DNA from: the human T2T-CHM13v2.0 reference genome, Homo sapiens
NCBI RefSeq assembly: GCF_009914755.1
Contig: NC_060944.1
DNA length: 64,000 bases
Reading direction: 5' to 3' (one strand)
Shown: in pieces, positions 1 through 50,701 of the stretch
How positions within the stretch are numbered: the first letter of the stretch is position 1
How the letters are laid out: each line of letters starts with the position of its first letter
The notes under the pieces: generated by a model
Told to the model about the DNA's origin: nothing
The model's input: only the letters and a program-made list of their open reading frames with translations
Databases searched by the model: none
Position numbers and translations under genes: made by a program

Positions 1-2639
1 AATCAAGGACATCGGAAGTGAGCCTGGGGGAGCAAAGTTTACTCTATCTTTTAAATAATAATTTTCTTTATTTCTTTTAATAATACATTCTTTAGAAATC
101 ATAAGGCTAGGTATTAAAACTTGTGATACCAGTGTGCTCAAATTATGTCTACCATTGGAGATTCTCACTTTTATTTTTTGAATTTATATTTTAGAAAAAA
201 TTACCTGTCCCTGTTTAAATGTATATTCATCCCAATATAAAATACATAAATAAAATGATATAGACTCAATACTTTAAAAAAAACTTAAATTCTAACATTC
301 TGTAGTTCTTCCACATCTCATTTGTAAAACAAGTAACTGATTTTTAAATTAATGCCCTATAAATAGGTTAAATTTATTTTTAAATTTGCCCTCCAGAGAA
401 AAGGGTTGTAGCATTTTATTTTTAACACACAAAATCAATCTAGATATTGAAAAAACCTTGTCATTGGCAGATATTCTAACAGATGATCTAACCACTGATT
501 TTTGCCTATGATTTATGGCAATTTTTTATTTGAATCTGTAGGATGTAAATACTTTTTACGCTGAACAAGTCACCAAACAGTACAAGACTTTAAGCTAAAA
601 GTAGCTAGGAAATACATAGGGAATCTTAAGGTGTTTGAAACAAAGATTTTACGACGCTTATCGTCTGCTGAAAGAAAAAAAATCGTTTCTTCATTTCTGA
701 TAATGTCAGAATAGATAGGCCATTGTTGCACACATAACTGAGTCTGACTGTAAGAATGAATTATCCCAAGTGAAATCCTCTAAATGCTTACTTAACGCTA
801 TAGGATGAAAAATTGCAAGCAAGAAAAGTTGAAAAGCAAGCCTTGGGGGAAGGAAGAGAGTATCAACATCACAATGAAATCTGCATTTGGCATTTTAAGT
901 AGGATCCTGTAGCAGGATGTAGAGGAGCCTGCTGTGTTTAAAAATGATCTTTTGCCCTTGTGTGTATATGTTTCAGCATTGAAATAATCAGTCCTCTTTC
1001 AAATATAATTTGATAGCATAATTAAAGTACCCCACTAGCACAACTTTTGAAGCTAAACTTTTCCTTTTTCTTGTGCACTTAGAAATTTTTTCACTTGTAT
1101 TTGATAGCCCAGACCAATTGACTTAGAATTCCCTGCTTGATATTGTAAAGAATTTACTTCTATTTATGTCTTCTAACACATAAAATGTTCTAAACTTTCA
1201 CCTCTAGTTATGGTAGCATGTAGGCAATGAAGCCTAACAGGACATCTGACTAAACTAGATGTGACATGTTAGTATCACAATACATCAAATTTGATATAAT
1301 GCCCTTTTTTCACTTTACATTATAAAATATGATTTTGCTTTTTCGTACTTTTTGCTTTTCTTTTTAGATTCAGTAATATATAAAAATATCAAGTCTTAAA
1401 ATTTAGTGAACCCAAGACCTAACGCCTTGAAGTAATTAACAAATAAGACACCATGTCTTTGCCTGTGCATATGCATTTAAACATATTTATTAATACAGTC
1501 ATGTTGGAGGGCGTGATTTACACAGCATCTTTTAGATATTCAGAGGTTACTTTGGAGCAGCCTATACTTTTGACCTTTAGCAATGTTCTTGCAAACCAGT
1601 CATTCAATTCTACTGGAATGAGATTAAAACAATCCAAGTATGGCTGGTATTCATATGCTTCTCCTTGTTTCCCTCTCCCCTCCCACCACTCCAAGGCTCT
1701 GGTAAAGACATTTTTGTTTTTGTTCTCCAGTCTCCTTATATAGGTCTAATCTATTACTCTTTATTCAACAATGTGTGTATATTGTAGTGACTAATTTCTT
1801 ATTAATTCCTCTACCGAGACTCTTCTGCAAAATTCTTGAGAAAATGAATTCATTAATTCTTCTTAAATTCTGGTTGCCGTTTATGGTTGGCCCTTAGATT
1901 TTGGGATTCAAGTCTACCATTCACAGCCTAGAGAGACAAACATGATAGCAGTTGTTTTCTTTTGGATAAAGGAGTTAAGATTTCTTCCATATAAACAGTT
2001 GGGGAAAAAGCAGACATATTTATTAGGCCCTATTTAAGAGTTTATTCACTCTGTTTAAAAAAATCATTAAAAACTTCAAAAGAAAAAGCAAAGACAGTGT
2101 GGAAGTAACTTTCAATGCTGAACATTGAACATTGAAACTTGAACATTAAAGCTTGAACATTGGCTTACAAACACACCAACAGAACAATTATTATATGTAT
2201 GTAACTTTGACTGTATGAATTTACATGCCAACTTGTAGATTTCTTTGTAGAAAAGAAAACATGAAAGATTAACGTATGGTTTTATAGACCGTTAACAAGA
2301 GCTGTATTTTATCTACCAGTCTTATTTTAACATTTCTCCCCACATCATCTTTGTATGCCAGTTCCACAAAATGTATTTTAAACCAGTTTTACCTTCTTTT
2401 TGGTTCCCTCATTAATGAGTTGTATATAATCTTAAAATATGTTTATCCTAGGTTTGTGTGAGAATTATCTTTTTAGTATTAAACTTCTAACTTTTGGTTA
2501 TGCCCCAGATAACAGAGGAAAAGAAATGATTATACTTGAAGCATTTTTTTATTCCAATTAATCTCCGTAGTAAATCTATTAAATTTAGCTCAAGTTACAT
2601 TTGTGGAATGACTACTTATACAGGTAATGTGATAGCACC

Positions 2640-46151: not shown

Positions 46152-47751
46152 TTTATAAATATTTAACTTTTATGTATATTTAACTGCTATACCATAATTG
46201 ACTAGTTTGTATGTTAATATTAGTAGGTAATAATAATATTTATATTTCCTCCATAGGTAGCTTCTGGGGGCATTTCTGCCTGGTAAATTTTATTCTTTAA
46301 TGACAAATACTAAAGTAAGTAACTTTAAAATATTATTGAGAATTTTTTTTCTATTGATGGGACACTGAATTTGTAGGTGGAAATAAAAACCTAGCTTTTT
46401 ACTAAACTTAATTTTTTATTTAAACACAACTCAAAATGTAAATATAAAATTAAGAATTTCCAAAATTAAACTTAGTTTTAGGAACTCACATAAGCAAGTG
46501 TAATACTGAAGAGCAAAGAAACTGTGCTCTATAAAAAAAAATTACAAGTAATTCTTGAAATCTAAGGGCTAATTTGTGAAGTAAATTTGGAAGCTACTTT
46601 ATGCTGTAGCTCCATCCTAGAGACCGAGAGAACTGCACTAGGAAAACCTGTTCAACCTTTTTTTAACCAGAAATTCTTTCTTTCTCCAGAAATCCTTTTC
46701 AGGTAATGCCTAATGATATCTCATTGAACATGTATTAGAAATTGTAGTTTAATTTTTAATTAAATAATTCAGTGAAAATATATTAATTGTAAAGATAAAT
46801 TTTAACACATATGGGAATACTAGACTTACGGTGGTCATCAACCCAAAATGCTACAAAATTACATAGAATGGTTAGTTTGGCAAAAAATAAATATCACCAC
46901 TAGCACCAAAAACCTAGGTTTCAAAAAGAAATAAAAGAAGCATTCCAAAATGTTAAAAATTTTTCATTTATCTACTTTCTAAATGTTCTTTGAAACACTT
47001 CTTATGTCATCATAATTTTGAAGTTTAAAAGTAAAGAAATAGTTATTCTAGTTAATATACTACCTTAAAGTTACTCTGGCTCACAAACAGAACAAAGCAA
47101 AGCATGACTTGACAGCAGTCGAATTACGGGAAATTGAAGCTAAACGAAATTGGATACCTCACCTCATCTAAACTCCTTACTTTATAAGAAGGAAAAGCAT
47201 CACAAAATGTTGAGGCCATTTAACTTAAAGTCATCAGGTGAGTTAGAGATAATTTGAGACCACTGCTTTTTTTCTCTTTGTTACTATTCTCTTATGAAGT
47301 TTTGCCTGAAAACAGGTCTACTAAAAATATAAGAATTTGTAATGAAGATGAACATATATCATTGCCTTTCTGCTTAGGATTGTTCAATATTTTCCCATTG
47401 ATAATATATAAAATCCTACCTACTTTGACCTCCTCTCCCACCATTTCTTTGCTCTCTATCTCCTAGAACTTCATTCTTGACTCCAAAGCTGCACCCTCCT
47501 GCATCAGTTTCTTTTGTTTGAAATCTTCAGCTCTTCATAAATTTCATCCAGCAAACTCCTATTTATCCTTTAACTCCCTATTATTTTTTCTTACAGTGCC
47601 ACATTTTCCTTCATTAGCACATATCCAATTTAAAGTTACATAGTTTGAGTTTTTGCTTGACTTTCTGTTTCTGCACTAAAGCATAAGCTCCACAAAAGCA
47701 AGTATCATGTCTGATTTAACAGGGTATATTCTATTCTTTTTTTTCCACAAG

Positions 47752-49600
47752 GCGGTGCCCGGTTCGGTCCCAGACGCGGCCACCAACCGACGTAAAGCCG
47801 GTGAGCCGCTCGGGGAGGAGAGAGGATCGGCGGGCGGCGGGCGGGGAAGGGGGCGCAGACAGGCAAGGGCCGGGGACCGCGAGGGCAAGGGCACCTGGGA
47901 GCCCGCAGAGGGGCGGCTGAGGGAGAAACCTCAGGCATGGCCGGGCCACCAGGAAAACACGGCCGCGGGATCCCACCGCCACAGACACGAGGGCGGTCCC
48001 GCGGCGCCCCGCCTGGGACGCCGGAAGGCCCTCGGCACCCACCAAGACCTGCCTCACGAGCCCCTGGTCCCGCCACCGGGGCCCCGAAGCGACCACAGCC
48101 ACAAACTCAACGCCAGGGCCACATCGCTCGTGATTCTCGTCCATCCTCCGACCCGGTCCCGCTCCGGGAGACCGGCGCGCCCCCACCGTGGGACGCTTTC
48201 CCAGGGCCAGGCGGCCCGACCACGTGCCACGCAAACGCCGTCGTCCGCACCGGTCGCGACTCGGCAAGGGAGCGGGCGGAGAGCTGACTCGCGGCGGAGG
48301 GGGGTCACTCGCCGGACGGAACGCTGCGCGCAGCCATCGCTCGCTGTCAGCCGCGTCCCAACCCGCTAGGACGCTGGGCCCTGCCGGCGGGATCCTCCCC
48401 TTACTCGGAAAGGGGAGGCGCCGGCCACAGTAGGCGACGAGCCGCGCTCGGCCACCACCGCGGTGGCCGGCGGAACCCTCGCTCTCCCCCCGTCACCCCG
48501 TCGAGGGGGAAGCTGAGGAGGGTTCCTCTGCAAGCGAGTCGCTACTGCAGCGCTACCATAACGGAGAGAGAGACAGAGGCGGCAGGCCGGGGGATCCCGT
48601 ACCCCAAGGCACACCTCTTGGATCGCTAGAGAAGGCTTTCTCACCGAGGATGGGTCACACTCCCCACCCGCCAGCCGCCCCTCGTGGGGCCCGAGGGGCC
48701 CGCAGAGGCGCTCAGGGAGGCCTGGGGAAGGGAGGGGGCCTGTGGTACCAGGAAAAACCTGCGTGCGGCAACCTTGAGCGTTCGCGGTCAGGGCGGGGAC
48801 CGGCAGGTGCGAGCGTGAGCGCAACTCCACAAGCCCCCGCCTCCCACCCCCCCCCCCACCCCGTCCACCCGCCTCTTTTCTTCAGAGGCAAAGCACCTCC
48901 GAGTAAACCCACACACGACCGGTCGGAGGCAGAACGGTAGCCCCTCGGCGGCCGGCCGGCGCACGCGTCACCAGCCCAAGCCCACCGCGATCGCTCACAG
49001 GGCCCGTGCGCACCCGCCAGAGGGGAGCACCGGACGTGCGCTCGCCGGACCAGGCGGGCGCCCTTCCCCGCGTGGGAGGGGCGCGTCTCGTCTCACTCAA
49101 CCGCCTCGGACCCCACACCGACGAGCTCCCTCAGGACCCACGCGCGGACACCGAGGCGCCGACCGGAGGAGGGGGCGCTGGGGGTGGGAACGACACACCA
49201 CCGCTCGGCCTCGGGAACCTGAGGGACAACCCGGAGCGCTCCAGGAGCACCGCAAAGGCCCAGGGGGAGCCAACGCTCGCGCAAACTCCCCGGGAGGGCA
49301 GCACGACGGGCCGGCGGGACAGCACCCCCACCGCTGCGGAGGGGGGCCGCCCGCAAGTCGACAACCACAGGAGGCGAGAGCGAGGGGTGCCTGCCGCGTC
49401 AGAGGACCCCCCGACCCACCCCGCGAGGCAGAAGGCGGGGGCGGGACAGCGAGGTCAGGCCGGGTTCCGCACCCCATGCCTTCCCAACGCACCACCCGCA
49501 GGCGAGGAAGAGGAGAGACAAGGGGCCCCCGCGGGCGGGACGAGAAGAAGGGTCCCATTCGCCACGAATGTCCGCCCCTCGCCCGTCGCGGCTCGGACAC
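47752..49600. promoter_or_regulatory. CpG island, probable Pol II promoter of the miR-663a host transcript
   Basis: Very high GC and CpG density with GC boxes (GGGCGG) in otherwise CpG-depleted DNA. Confidence 0.75.
47936..48028 (-). ncRNA. MIR663A: miR-663a precursor hairpin (mature 47993-48014)
   Basis: Minus strand reads CCTTCCGGCGTCCCAGGCGGGGCGCCGCGGGACCGCCCTCGTGTCTGTGGCGGTGGGATCCCGCGGCCGTGTTTTCCTGGTGGCCCGGCCATG (93 nt), matching recalled hsa-mir-663a including the CCTTCC and CATG ends that differ from rDNA and mir-663b. Confidence 0.9.
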
Positions 49601-50701
49601 GGCCAGGGAGAGCATGACATCACCATATTCTATTCTTACAAGAGTGCTGCCACGTAAGTGTCAATGAATGTTTGTGAAATAAATGAGGGACTAAAGGAGT
49701 GATCGAACAAATAAAAATAAGTTATCTGTGTGTATTGTATGTGTGAATAAGATTTTGAGTTTGGCCAAGGCAGTTAATCACATATTAACAACTCTTTAGA
49801 TACATAAGGTTTATAGCAATGAGGTACAAAATTGGTTCAACACCAAATTCTAAGATGAAACAAGGTTTATGTTCAGAAATATAGTGTTACTTTTTCTAAT
49901 ATCATTTGCCCTCCAACTATCAGCATGACACATGCAAACCATTGATACGTGTTTTTTTTTTTTGTATTGAAGATTCCACATGAAGAAAAATTATTATATT
50001 TCCAATAGGAAGTCCTCTTCTAAATGACAACAAATCTGAGGGTGAACACATTTGTTAAAAAGAGAGAGATTAAAAAGTTAAGATGCTGTTTGTACAGTAT
50101 ATAACTGAACAAAGTTGTATCTAGCAATTTGACAAGAAAGGTAAAACAGAATATTAACCTCAGCACACAAGTTTAGCTAATGATCTGGAACGGGGAGTTG
50201 TGAGTAGAGAGGAGGACAAAGATGAAAGACAACCATTTATCCCAAGTTTCTTTCCAAAGATGAAAAATAAAAAACCCTCTTAGTAATGTTTTTTAAATTC
50301 TAACTACTTTCAAGAACACATCAATAAGATATAGAGAGATAACAATCAAGTTGGACATTAACTTAAAAGTCAGATGACTTTTTAAGCATAAGTAACTTAG
50401 AACTGTAAAGTAAAAAACACTAAATGTCAATGACTTTAAAGTGGATACTGAAGTAAAAAAAAAACCTTCTATTAAAAACTAGACTATATGCAGTAACTTA
50501 TGTAGAAAGCTTAGCATAAATATTTATACAAAATTGCCCTACCATATTTTATTAAAATATTACATTATAAATTAAGAGAAAATAATTTTAAAAATGAGTT
50601 ATATTTTAGGCAATTTTTCTCAAAATGAGTTTCATAAATTGATATGGTTATTAGCATAGTAATTTCAATAATAGGAACAAAGAAACCAAATGAAAACCTA
50701 A

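What the first reader, a model, noticed from the sequence alone, without database searches (positions are those of the whole stretch)
49590..49637. 5' end of the retrocopy coincides with the A'/01 pre-rRNA processing site
Seen: the insert begins (minus) GGTGATGTCATGCTCTCCC. Known (recalled): the human 5'-ETS reads GATCGATGTGG TGACGTCGTGCTCTCCC, where GATCGATGTGG is the conserved nucleolin/U3-associated motif just downstream of the A' cleavage at about +414-422. The copy therefore starts at the last GG of that motif, roughly 10 nt from A'. Inference: the template was A'-cleaved pre-rRNA reverse-transcribed almost to its 5' end rather than randomly truncated. The 3' end (~+2300) would then be a fossil of an aborted or exosome-trimmed, oligoadenylated terminus spanning an uncleaved A0 site.
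Basis: partly seen in the sequence, partly recalled or inferred. Interest (0 to 1): 0.75.

Follow-up and report, generated by a model that had tools for sequence, protein, structure and literature searches.

The report
Pre-rRNA retrocopies begin at A′ site
The MIR663A locus on chromosome 20 is an old reverse-transcribed copy of part of the ribosomal RNA precursor's leader, and both it and a second copy on chromosome 8 start right at the leader's first processing cut, so they look like preserved copies of a short-lived RNA intermediate.

Summary
Window 49624-47745 (minus strand, 1,880 nt) copies the human 47S 5'ETS from +440 to +2324. An 11-13 nt target-site duplication flanks it. It ends in an A8 run that neither the rDNA nor the target encodes. 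A chr3 paralog preserves the empty site. It is therefore an L1-type (target-primed) retrocopy.

The conserved motif GATCGATGTGG lies at +431..+441, so the copy starts at that motif's last GG. A 2026 nanopore map (PMC13201660) places the 01/A' ends at C423^U424, G429^U430 and G443^A444, and +440 falls inside that cluster.

An array-excluding probe found a second insertion on chr8. It has its own 12-nt duplication, different flanks and a different 3' end (about +971), and it begins at about +432. Under uniform 5' truncation the joint chance is about 7e-4.

The reading that the template was A'-cleaved, A0-uncleaved pre-rRNA copied almost to its 5' end is well supported. The 3' end at +2324 matches no mapped RNA end. 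Whether the A8 records oligoadenylation or a template switch is open. A full genome survey was not possible. This is a new member of a known kind, of moderate interest.

The parts
49625..49637 (-). 5' copy of the target-site duplication, AAGAATAGAATAT (certain core GAATAGAATAT = 49635-49625)
   Evidence: Direct reading. The same 11-mer follows the A-run at the other edge. A single copy sits at the chr3 empty site C3:76011574-76011584.
47745..49624 (-). Retrocopy of 47S pre-rRNA 5'ETS, nt +440..+2324 (1,880 nt)
   Evidence: 88% identity to the rDNA arrays. Global alignment gives 1,676 matches, 172 mismatches and 69 gap columns. GC is 0.70-0.77 against 0.21-0.42 in the flanks.
49606..49624 (-). 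First 19 nt of the insert, GGTGATGTCATGCTCTCCC = rDNA +440..+458; starts at the last GG of the ECM motif
   Evidence: 01/A' ends mapped at 423^424, 429^430 and 443^444 (PMC13201660 Table 1).
48385..48446 (-). Equivalent of the A0 region (rDNA +1609..+1672), present and uninterrupted
   Evidence: Coordinate transfer through the alignment. A0 positions from PMC13201660 Table 1.
47939..48028 (-). mir-663 hairpin (MIR663A) = rDNA +2039..+2128
   Evidence: Rfam RF00957 scores 103.7 bits here and 102.5 bits in true rDNA at L013:3632-3721. The two differ at 1 of 90 positions.
48873..48983 (-). Exon 1 of MIR663AHG, lying wholly inside the retrocopy; the hairpin is then in intron 1
   Evidence: Hub annotation table (not computed here) set against the insert boundaries. 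The insert keeps CpG o/e 0.88.
47737..47744 (-). A8 run between the last templated base and the 3' duplication (6-8 A are non-templated, depending on whether the duplication is 11 or 13 nt)
   Evidence: The rDNA continues GGCGCC after +2324. The chr3 empty site has no A-run. The only A-run of 4 or more in the whole 5'ETS is A4 at +1414.
47726..47736 (-). 3' copy of the target-site duplication, GAATAGAATAT

Best explanation
SHOWN. The block at window 49624-47745 (minus strand) is a target-primed (L1-type) retrocopy of human pre-rRNA 5'ETS +440..+2324. It inserted into a chr20 pericentromeric duplicate of a chr3p segment.

INFERRED, main claim. The template was Pol I pre-rRNA already cut at the first processing site (01/A'), not yet cut at A0, with a 3' end inside the 5'ETS. 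The reverse transcriptase ran essentially to the RNA's 5' end. The last 10 nt or so were lost to 5' nibbling of the RNA or to microhomology-guided joining (1 nt, T).

Support from a second event. A separate insertion on chr8 (5'ETS about +432..+971) has its own duplication and 7 extra nucleotides at its 5' junction, and it ends within 2 nt of the U430 end. The shared start therefore reflects a discrete RNA 5' end, not chance truncation.

INFERRED, weaker. The A8 is the remnant of a short non-canonical oligo(A) tail put on an abortive or exosome-trimmed transcript by the TRAMP-type polymerase PAPD5/TENT4B, and that tail let L1 ORF2p use the RNA in trans.

Later history. The GC-rich, still CpG-rich insert became the first exon and promoter region of MIR663AHG. 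Its pre-existing 5'ETS hairpin is annotated as MIR663A.
For: Retrocopy anatomy:
- 11-13 nt duplication, untemplated A8 and exact colinearity with the transcript only.
- Empty site on chr3, with flanks 93.7% and 95.5% identical.
- No AATAAA/ATTAAA in either sequence, and no A-run in the rDNA that could template the tail.

5' end:
- ECM at +431..441 and copy start at +440.
- Nanopore-mapped 01 ends at 423^424, 429^430 and 443^444, with numbering verified base for base.
- The nuclear 5'-end peaks listed in the 5'ETS are only 423, 429, 443, 456 and 484, then none until 3578.
- A'-cut species dominate: '5ETS-01' averages 8,295 against '5ETS' 717 reads per million, and 30S 1,392 against 34S 32.

Second copy (chr8):
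- Found with a 35-nt probe that excludes the arrays; 2 of 2 hits were chr20 and chr8.
- Own 12-nt duplication CTGGTATGTTTA.
- 6 of 8 matches to rDNA +432..439 upstream of GGTGA, against 2 of 8 to the chr20 flank (P = 0.004; 9 of 2,420 flank 8-mers do as well).
- Different 3' end.
- Three-way counts over 492 columns: 328 same, 28 shared by both copies against rDNA, 14 private to chr20, 118 private to chr8, 4 all different. This fits two samplings of the rDNA lineage at different times.
- Joint chance under uniform truncation 7e-4.

Literature (passages only):
- A' is the one cleavage proposed to be co-transcriptional, and an A'-processed, 3'-truncated aberrant species ('37S*') is stabilised by PAPD5/exosome depletion (PMC3964915).
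- Abortive Pol I transcripts ending in the 5'ETS are polyadenylated by Papd5 (PMC3061060).
Against: - The chr20 start is not at a mapped end. It is 10-16 nt short of the two cuts and 4 nt upstream of the 444 end.
- The family-wise chance for chr20 alone is 0.064.
- The chr8 boundary is read from an alignment of about 70% identity and from 6 of 8 bases. It has no empty-site control.
- chr8 was ascertained with a probe that starts at +440, so only copies reaching that far 5' could be found.
- The end map comes from present-day HEK293 cells, while the insertions are old.
- No enriched nuclear 3' end is listed at 2324 or 971. The nearest are 2244 and 2693, and 843 and 995.
- In chr8 the A-run is separated from the ETS part by about 38 nt of T-rich sequence, so at least that event was not simple priming on an ETS oligo(A) tail.
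- PAPD5 depletion did not stabilise normal A'-A0 fragments (PMC3964915), so the template would have to be an aberrant species.
- Only 2 retrocopies were found, and the survey was far from exhaustive.
Confidence: 0.72

Rival explanations
1. Chance 5' truncation. The reverse transcriptase stopped at an arbitrary point, as it does in most L1 insertions, and the nearness to A' is coincidence.
For: 5' truncation with short microhomology is common in L1-mediated insertions (Kojima 2010, PMC2912911, abstract and sections 6 and 14). The chr20 junction has a 1-nt microhomology. With TSS and A0 also counted as landmarks, the chance for chr20 alone is 0.064.
Against: A second insertion with separate flanks, duplication and 3' end starts within 8 nt of the first. 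The conditional chance is 0.039 and the joint chance 7e-4. The chr8 5' junction carries 7 extra nucleotides, a feature Kojima 2010 links to full-length insertions (section heading only).
Confidence: 0.07
2. Roadblock rather than RNA end. The template was uncleaved 47S or 5'ETS RNA, and the reverse transcriptase was halted at the conserved motif by bound proteins (UTP-A/WDR75-UTP4-UTP18, nucleolin) or by structure.
For: The ECM is a tight protein-binding site in the human SSU processome (PMC11813130, passages; PMC4361047). The chr20 copy stops at the 3' edge of the motif.
Against: The chr8 copy reads through 10 of the 11 motif bases, to about +432. A'-cut species outnumber uncut ones by about 12 to 1 in nuclear RNA.
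Confidence: 0.08
3. Rival for the 3' end only. The pre-rRNA fragment had no A-tail. ORF2p began on the poly(A) tail of an L1, Alu or mRNA and switched template onto the 3' end of an ETS fragment, leaving only A8.
For: Kojima 2010 ascribes the 3 of 25 ncRNA retrocopies that had poly(A) tails to such switching (section 6). The chr8 copy has about 38 nt of unrelated T-rich sequence between its ETS part and its A7, as a bipartite chimera would. No 3'-end peak at 2324 appears in the nuclear data.
Against: No trace of L1, Alu or other sequence lies between +2324 and the A8 on chr20. Polyadenylated abortive 5'ETS transcripts are documented.
Confidence: 0.35
4. DNA-level origin. The block is a fragment of rDNA moved by segmental duplication or repair capture, like other dispersed rDNA pieces.
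For: Such fragments exist. One on chr14 (C14:9672760-9678688) covers +835..+2615 and +3145..+7701, without an A-tail and abutting an Alu. Degraded rDNA units outside the arrays are described in PMC5381670 (abstract and passages).
Against: The chr20 insert has a perfect duplication, an untemplated A-run, a precise empty site and no promoter or IGS sequence. Its flanks occur only on chr20 and chr3 (2 of 2 candidates in each).
Confidence: 0.02
5. The chr8 and chr20 copies are not independent. Both descend from one transcribed 'master' retrocopy, so the shared start carries no extra weight.
For: The two copies share 28 differences from modern rDNA, including 6 transversions.
Against: chr8 extends 8 nt further 5' than chr20, and those bases match rDNA rather than the chr20 flank. 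chr20 extends 1,353 nt further 3' than chr8. Neither carries the other's flank. The shared differences are what changes in the rDNA lineage after both insertions would produce.
Confidence: 0.05

Closest known systems
L1-mediated processed retrocopies (processed pseudogenes) of cellular RNAs
   Same: Target-site duplication of 11-13 nt, 3' A-run, colinearity with an RNA, a precise empty site, and a weakly L1-endonuclease-like target (bottom strand TCTT/AC; the TTTT/AA consensus is recalled).
   Different: The template is an RNA polymerase I spacer transcript, not an mRNA. The 5' end is set by an endonucleolytic processing site rather than a cap site. The tail is very short, with no polyadenylation signal.
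ncRNA retrocopies: 5S rRNA, U6 and other snRNA, 7SK, 7SL, tRNA; 'tailless retropseudogenes' and template-switch chimeras (Kojima 2010; Schmitz 2004 and the Buzdin-type chimeras are recalled or cited through Kojima)
   Same: Non-mRNA templates mobilised in trans by L1. The chr8 copy resembles a bipartite chimera.
   Different: In Kojima's human- and chimp-specific set the rRNA cases were all 5S (7 of 7; supplement file 1). The chr20 copy has a tail, so it is not 'tailless'.
Aberrant A'-processed, 3'-truncated pre-rRNAs under TRAMP/exosome surveillance (human 37S*; mouse abortive 5'ETS transcripts)
   Same: Same proposed architecture for the template: a 5' end at A', a 3' end at a non-canonical place, and PAPD5-dependent adenylation.
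   Different: 37S* ends inside 28S, not in the 5'ETS. Those species are known as RNAs; here the evidence is a DNA copy, and adenylation of this particular end is inferred.
Dispersed DNA-level rDNA fragments and pseudogenes (Robicheau et al. 2017, PMC5381670)
   Same: rDNA-derived sequence outside the arrays, often pericentromeric.
   Different: Those include IGS or long multi-part stretches and are not described as retrocopies. That paper's text has 0 occurrences of 'retrotranspos', 'miR-663' or 'chromosome 20'.
rDNA-resident miRNA-like hairpins (miR-663a in the 5'ETS: Yoshikawa & Fujii 2016, PMC4969525; bioRxiv 10.1101/2025.11.10.687711)
   Same: The same hairpin. Those papers note that the miR-663a sequence lies in the 5'ETS.
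   Different: In the passages I saw, they do not treat the chr20 gene as a target-primed retrocopy or map its ends.

Membership tests
L1-type (target-primed) processed retrocopy | Direct target-site duplication at both edges of the insert | tested here: met
   GAATAGAATAT at 49635-49625 and 47736-47726. chr8 copy: CTGGTATGTTTA on both sides.
L1-type (target-primed) processed retrocopy | 3' A-run not encoded by the source gene or the target | tested here: met
   A8 at 47744-47737. The rDNA continues GGCGCC. The chr3 empty site has no A-run.
L1-type (target-primed) processed retrocopy | Empty (pre-integration) site with one copy of the duplicated sequence | tested here: met
   C3:76011574-76011584, flanks 93.7% and 95.5% identical. 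None was found for chr8.
L1-type (target-primed) processed retrocopy | Target resembling the L1 endonuclease site (TTTT/AA; consensus recalled) | tested here: inconclusive
   chr20 bottom strand reads ATTCTT/ACAAG if the duplication is 13 nt, a loose fit. chr8 fits poorly.
L1-type (target-primed) processed retrocopy | Colinear with a transcript only, with no promoter or spacer DNA of the source | tested here: met
   Homology is confined to +440..+2324 of the transcribed region.
Tailless retropseudogene (Schmitz type) | No A-rich tail; 3'-truncated | tested here: not met
   An A8 is present on chr20.
Template-switch chimeric retrocopy (U6/L1 type) | A 3' part derived from L1, Alu or an mRNA between the ncRNA part and the poly(A) | tested here: inconclusive
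   chr20: nothing but A8, which neither shows nor excludes a switch within a poly(A) tail. chr8: about 38 nt of unassigned T-rich sequence before A7.
Copy of A'-cleaved pre-rRNA (5' end = site 01) | 5' end within the mapped 01 end cluster (424-444 on 45SN1) | tested here: met
   chr20 at +440 (or +439) and chr8 at about +432, against 423^424, 429^430 and 443^444.
Copy of A'-cleaved pre-rRNA (5' end = site 01) | Recurrence in independent insertions | tested here: met
   2 of 2 duplication-flanked, A-run-bearing ETS retrocopies found. The survey had low sensitivity: 5 probes at 3 spacer positions, at most 3 mismatches each.
TRAMP/PAPD5-oligoadenylated Pol I transcript as template | A native adenylated RNA 3' end at or near +2324 | not testable with these tools
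   The published nuclear end peaks (in-vitro-tailed libraries) list none at 2324. Native tails were not assayed there.
mir-663 family (Rfam RF00957) | Score above the gathering threshold of 75 bits | tested here: met
   103.7 bits at window 47939-48028. The true rDNA scores 102.5 bits.

The most novel reading that the evidence does not exclude
Nucleolar surveillance intermediates reach the germline genome. A'-cleaved, A0-uncleaved Pol I transcripts carrying short TRAMP-type oligo(A) tails were captured by L1 ORF2p at least twice in primate history. Retrocopy ends can then be read as fossils of pre-rRNA processing and decay sites, showing that site 01 was already used at the same nucleotides in the ancestor. 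One such fossil supplied a ready-made CpG island, a promoter and a hairpin, and became the MIR663A/MIR663AHG gene.
Probability: 0.35. Interest if true: 0.6.

Novelty: new member of a known kind. Interest (0 to 1): 0.5.

Why it matters
- **Gene origin.** It gives an exact origin for a much-studied microRNA gene. MIR663A and the first exon of its host lncRNA are a reverse-transcribed piece of the rRNA precursor's leader.
- **Ambiguous reads.** The hairpin differs from more than 200 rDNA copies at 1 of 90 bases (227 forward and 1 reverse genomic matches to the nearby ECM probe). Reads assigned to this gene are therefore ambiguous, as others have noted.
- **Reach of L1.** Pol I spacer RNA, which normally lives for minutes inside the nucleolus, can be a substrate for L1 in trans.
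- **A record of RNA ends.** The ends of such copies record the RNA's real ends. Two copies starting at the first processing site are independent, DNA-level evidence for where that site lay in ancestral primates.
- **A testable prediction.** Other spacer retrocopies should pile up at 01, A0 and exonuclease pause sites.

Tried and rejected
- **Whole-insert and 341-nt DNA searches of the assembly.** These were saturated by the arrays: 40 of 251 and 40 of 240 candidates scored, all rDNA apart from the query's own chr20 locus. Non-array copies stayed hidden.
- **ECM-region pattern search.** It gave 227 forward and 1 reverse hit (control 0), but only the first 100 were listed, all in the arrays. The single reverse hit was not located.
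- **Array-excluding probes.** The probe at +1177 found chr20 only. The probe at +2000 found chr20 and a chr14 fragment that turned out to be a tailless rDNA piece spanning +835..+7701, uninformative for A'. The chr8-derived probe found only chr8 and chr20.
- **MIR663B.** I did not locate this locus.
- **Empty site for chr8.** None found. The other 39 scored places were an old interspersed repeat far from the junction.
- **Papers not held.** Kass 1987 and Shcherbik 2010.
- **Supplements of PMC13201660.** Files 1 and 4 could not be read, so the detailed site figure (Fig. S7) was not seen and may bear on minor 5'ETS ends. Supplement 3 (pseudouridine table) was irrelevant.
- **Papers read but not used.** PMC10068337, PMC13542088 and PMC12355656 (passages or part 1) gave nothing used here.
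- **Searches for prior description.** 'miR-663' + 'external transcribed spacer' returned 6 papers. MIR663A/rDNA/chromosome 20/pseudogene returned 36 papers, 12 listed. retrocopy/pre-rRNA/LINE-1/target site duplication returned 39 papers, and the 10 listed all had 0 occurrences of 'pre-rRNA'. None described this locus as a retrocopy. That is not proof that it is absent from print.
- **Rejected readings.** A DNA-level duplication is rejected for chr20 (empty site, duplication, tail). A canonical Pol II polyadenylated transcript is rejected (no AATAAA/ATTAAA).
- **Sub-threshold Rfam hits.** MESTIT1_1 and EBv-sisRNA-1 in the flanks are taken as chance.
Full report
**What is in the window**

Read on the minus strand, an AT-rich flank ends in AAGAATAGAATAT (49637-49625). 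It is followed at 49624 by GGTGATGTCATGCTCTCCC and 1,880 nt of GC-rich sequence (GC 0.70-0.77, against 0.21-0.42 outside). Then come eight A (47744-47737), then GAATAGAATAT again (47736-47726), then the flank resumes.

A search of the window's own assembly with this block returned the block itself and rDNA units on chr13 and chr14 at 88% identity across the insert. The arrays filled all 40 scored places out of 251 candidates.

**Reference and numbering**

I fetched one chr13 rDNA unit (L013).

- Rfam places the 18S 5' end at L013:5249. It also finds the mir-663 model inside the true 5'ETS at L013:3632-3721.
- I set +1 at L013:1594, the G of the start motif, which I recalled rather than computed.
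- This choice is validated independently. With it, L013 has C at 423, U at 424, G at 429, U at 430, G at 443 and A at 444, exactly the bases and numbers that Table 1 of PMC13201660 gives for site 01 on the 45SN1 reference.
- 18S then starts at +3656, against 3655 in that paper, a 1-nt difference further downstream.

**Endpoints of the copy**

- The rDNA reads ...CTCTTCGTGATCGATGT|GGTGACGTCGTGCTCTCCC. The insert starts at the G of +440.
- The T before it (+439) could come from either the RNA or the target, a 1-nt microhomology.
- At the other end the rDNA reads ...CACCGCCTCGTGG|GGCGCC. The last templated base is +2324 and the A8 is not templated.
- Global alignment gives 1,676 matches, 172 mismatches and 69 gap columns. 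Of the mismatches, 46 are CpG-to-TpG/CpA changes in the insert.
- Neither sequence has AATAAA or ATTAAA. The only A-run of 4 or more in the whole 5'ETS is A4 at +1414.

**It is a target-primed retrocopy**

Searching with each flank alone gave exactly two places each: chr20 itself and one locus on chr3, at 94-95% identity. The two chr3 matches overlap by 11 nt. Printed side by side, chr3 reads ...ctcttatagGAATAGAATATaccctgtt..., one copy of the duplicated 11-mer with no insert and no A-run.

This is a preserved empty site. With the duplication and the untemplated A-run it establishes an RNA-mediated, L1-type insertion and rules out a DNA-level transfer of rDNA. If the duplication is 13 nt, the bottom-strand nick site is ATTCTT/ACAAG, a loose fit to the L1 endonuclease preference (consensus recalled).

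**Where A' is**

- GATCGATGTGG is the 11-nt conserved nucleolin/U3-associated motif that marks the A'/01 site (PMC2919729, one passage; PMC4361047, passages). In the human SSU processome it is held by WDR75, UTP4 and UTP18 (PMC11813130, passages). In L013 it is +431..+441.
- The original mapping paper (Kass 1987) is not held.
- The 2026 nanopore study lists the reported positions as about C414-C416 and G420-U422. It remaps site 01 on 45SN1 to C423^U424, G429^U430 and G443^A444 (section 8, Table 1).
- Its source data list nuclear 5'-end peaks in the 5'ETS at 423, 429, 443, 456 and 484, and then none until 3578 (supplement 6, parts 1-2).

The chr20 copy therefore starts 10 nt inside the U430 end, 16 nt inside the U424 end, and 4 nt outside the A444 end.

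Under uniform 5' truncation over 1..2274, the chance of landing within 10 nt of a mapped 01 end is 0.018. It is 0.064 if windows at the start site and A0 are also counted.

**A second, independent copy**

The arrays swamp ordinary searches. I therefore used the first 35 nt of the chr20 insert as a pattern with at most 3 mismatches. Canonical rDNA differs from it at 4 positions and drops out. Two places matched: chr20 and C8:94894421-94894455.

Reading that locus on the minus strand gives, in order:

1. CTGGTATGTTTA
2. GCACACA
3. ATTGCTGT
4. GGTGATGTCATGCTCTCCC..., with about 70% identity to rDNA, up to about +971
5. TG, T10, then AATTTAGTTTTATTATTTTTAATTTT
6. A7, T
7. CTGGTATGTTTA again

So chr8 has its own 12-nt duplication, unrelated flanks and a different 3' end.

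The 8 nt before GGTGA match rDNA +432..+439 (ATCGATGT) at 6 of 8 positions, and one of the two mismatches is a CpG transition. They match the chr20 flank at only 2 of 8. Chance for 6 of 8 or better is 0.004 by the binomial, and 9 of 2,420 8-mers in the chr8 flanks do as well.

The chr8 copy thus begins at about +432, 2 nt from the U430 end, preceded by 7 extra nucleotides. It cannot derive from the chr20 locus because it reaches further 5'. The chr20 copy cannot derive from it because chr20 reaches 1,353 nt further 3'.

The probe could only find copies that reach +440. The fair null is therefore a 5' end uniform over 1..440, and the chance of 424-440 is 0.039. Joint with chr20 this is about 7e-4. 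A probe taken from the chr8 version found the same two loci only. No empty-site paralog exists for chr8.

**Relationship of the two copies**

| Pattern over 492 ungapped columns (+440..+971) | Sites |
|---|---|
| All three the same | 328 |
| chr20 = chr8, differing from modern rDNA | 28 (22 transitions, 6 transversions) |
| Private to chr20 | 14 |
| Private to chr8 | 118 |
| All three differ | 4 |

The simplest reading is that the 28 shared states are ancestral rDNA states that the rDNA lineage has since replaced, that chr8 is much the older insertion, and that chr20 is younger.

The 2.8% private change on chr20 is similar to the per-lineage share of the 4.5-6.3% divergence between the chr20 and chr3 flanks. 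That suggests insertion not long after that duplication. Dating in years would need outgroup genomes, which these tools do not hold.

**How it most likely happened**

- **Shown:** two target-primed insertions of 5'ETS RNA whose 5' ends fall in the 01 cluster. The chr20 copy spans A0 intact (window 48446-48385).
- **From the literature (passages only):** A' is the one cleavage proposed to be co-transcriptional in human cells. An A'-processed, 3'-truncated aberrant species accumulates when PAPD5 or exosome factors are depleted (PMC3964915). Abortive Pol I transcripts ending in the 5'ETS are polyadenylated through Papd5 (PMC3061060, citing Shcherbik 2010). In nuclear RNA, A'-cut forms outnumber uncut forms by roughly 12 to 1 (8,295 against 717 reads per million).
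- **Inferred:** the templates were A'-cut, 3'-incomplete pre-rRNA fragments. The reverse transcriptase reached, or nearly reached, their 5' ends.
- **Open:** how the 3' end was primed. The A8 on chr20 may be the remnant of a short TRAMP-type tail. Or the enzyme may have started on another RNA's poly(A) tail and switched, which is how Kojima 2010 explains the 3 of 25 ncRNA retrocopies with tails (section 6). The T-rich spacer in the chr8 copy shows that something more complex than simple tail priming happened there.
- **Against a landmark 3' end:** neither +2324 nor +971 coincides with a listed nuclear 3'-end peak. The nearest are 2244 and 2693, and 843 and 995. Those libraries were tailed in vitro, so they say nothing about native tails.

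**Present-day role**

The hairpin at window 47939-48028 scores 103.7 bits against Rfam mir-663. It differs from the rDNA hairpin at 1 of 90 positions. By the hub's annotation, exon 1 of MIR663AHG (48873-48983) lies wholly inside the insert. The insert keeps a CpG observed/expected ratio of 0.88.

Others have noted that the miR-663a sequence sits in the 5'ETS (PMC4969525, passages and a Table 1 excerpt; bioRxiv 10.1101/2025.11.10.687711, passages). In what I read, neither describes the chr20 gene as a retrocopy or maps its ends. Three targeted searches found no such description either.

**Limits**

- Only 5 probes at 3 spacer positions were run: +440 in three versions (the canonical ECM probe, the chr20 version and the chr8 version), +1177 and +2000. 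Each needed at most 3 mismatches in 27-35 nt, so decayed copies will have been missed.
- Copies truncated 3' of +440 could not be found by the A'-proximal probes.
- The chr14 fragment found with the +2000 probe spans +835..+7701, has no tail and abuts an Alu. It is a different kind of object and does not test the idea.
- MIR663B was not located.

**Verdict**

The main interpretation is well supported and is now backed by a second insertion. The oligoadenylation reading of the 3' end remains one of two live options. The mechanism is ordinary L1 action in trans. The template and the processing-site-defined 5' end make this a new member of a known kind.

Noticed in passing
window 46600-50700; paralog C3:76010501-76012705 (L016, L018): The flanks of the insert are a segmental duplicate of a chr3p segment (93.7% and 95.5% identity). 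Each flank occurs only at these two places in the assembly (2 of 2 candidates in each search).
   Followed up: partly
L036 (C8:94892921-94895955), about L036 1035-990 on the minus strand: In the chr8 copy the ETS part is followed by about 38 nt of T-rich low-complexity sequence (TG, T10, AATTTAGTTTTATTATTTTTAATTTT) before the A7. Its origin is unknown: the 3' end of another RNA, or later simple-repeat growth.
   Followed up: no
C14:9672760-9678688 (L039-L041): An old rDNA-derived fragment outside the chr14 array covers +835..+2615 and +3145..+7701 (5'ETS, 18S, ITS1, 5.8S and most of ITS2) at 78-81% identity. It has an internal deletion of about 530 nt, an Alu at its 5' edge and no A-tail.
   Followed up: partly
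assembly-wide: The 27-nt ECM-region pattern has 227 forward hits and 1 reverse-strand hit with at most 3 mismatches. The single inverted copy was not listed and was not located.
   Followed up: no
window about 48215-48126 (rDNA +1848..+1937) and 48039-47920 (rDNA +2028..+2147): Divergence from rDNA is very uneven along the insert: 0-2 differences per 90 columns in these two patches (the second holds the hairpin), against a mean of 11.4 and up to 32 elsewhere. This probably reflects conserved elements of the 5'ETS itself, but gene conversion or constraint on the copy was not tested. The window coordinates of the first patch are interpolated.
   Followed up: partly
window 48859-48839 and 48702-48694: The chr20 copy carries 21 nt (a G-rich run) and 9 nt that are absent from the chr13 rDNA unit. 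These may be expansions in the copy or deletions in the rDNA lineage.
   Followed up: no
L013:1457-1546: Rfam's pRNA (NoRC-associated RNA) model matches just upstream of the rDNA start site (83.7 bits). This is as expected and serves as a sanity check on the reference unit.
   Followed up: no
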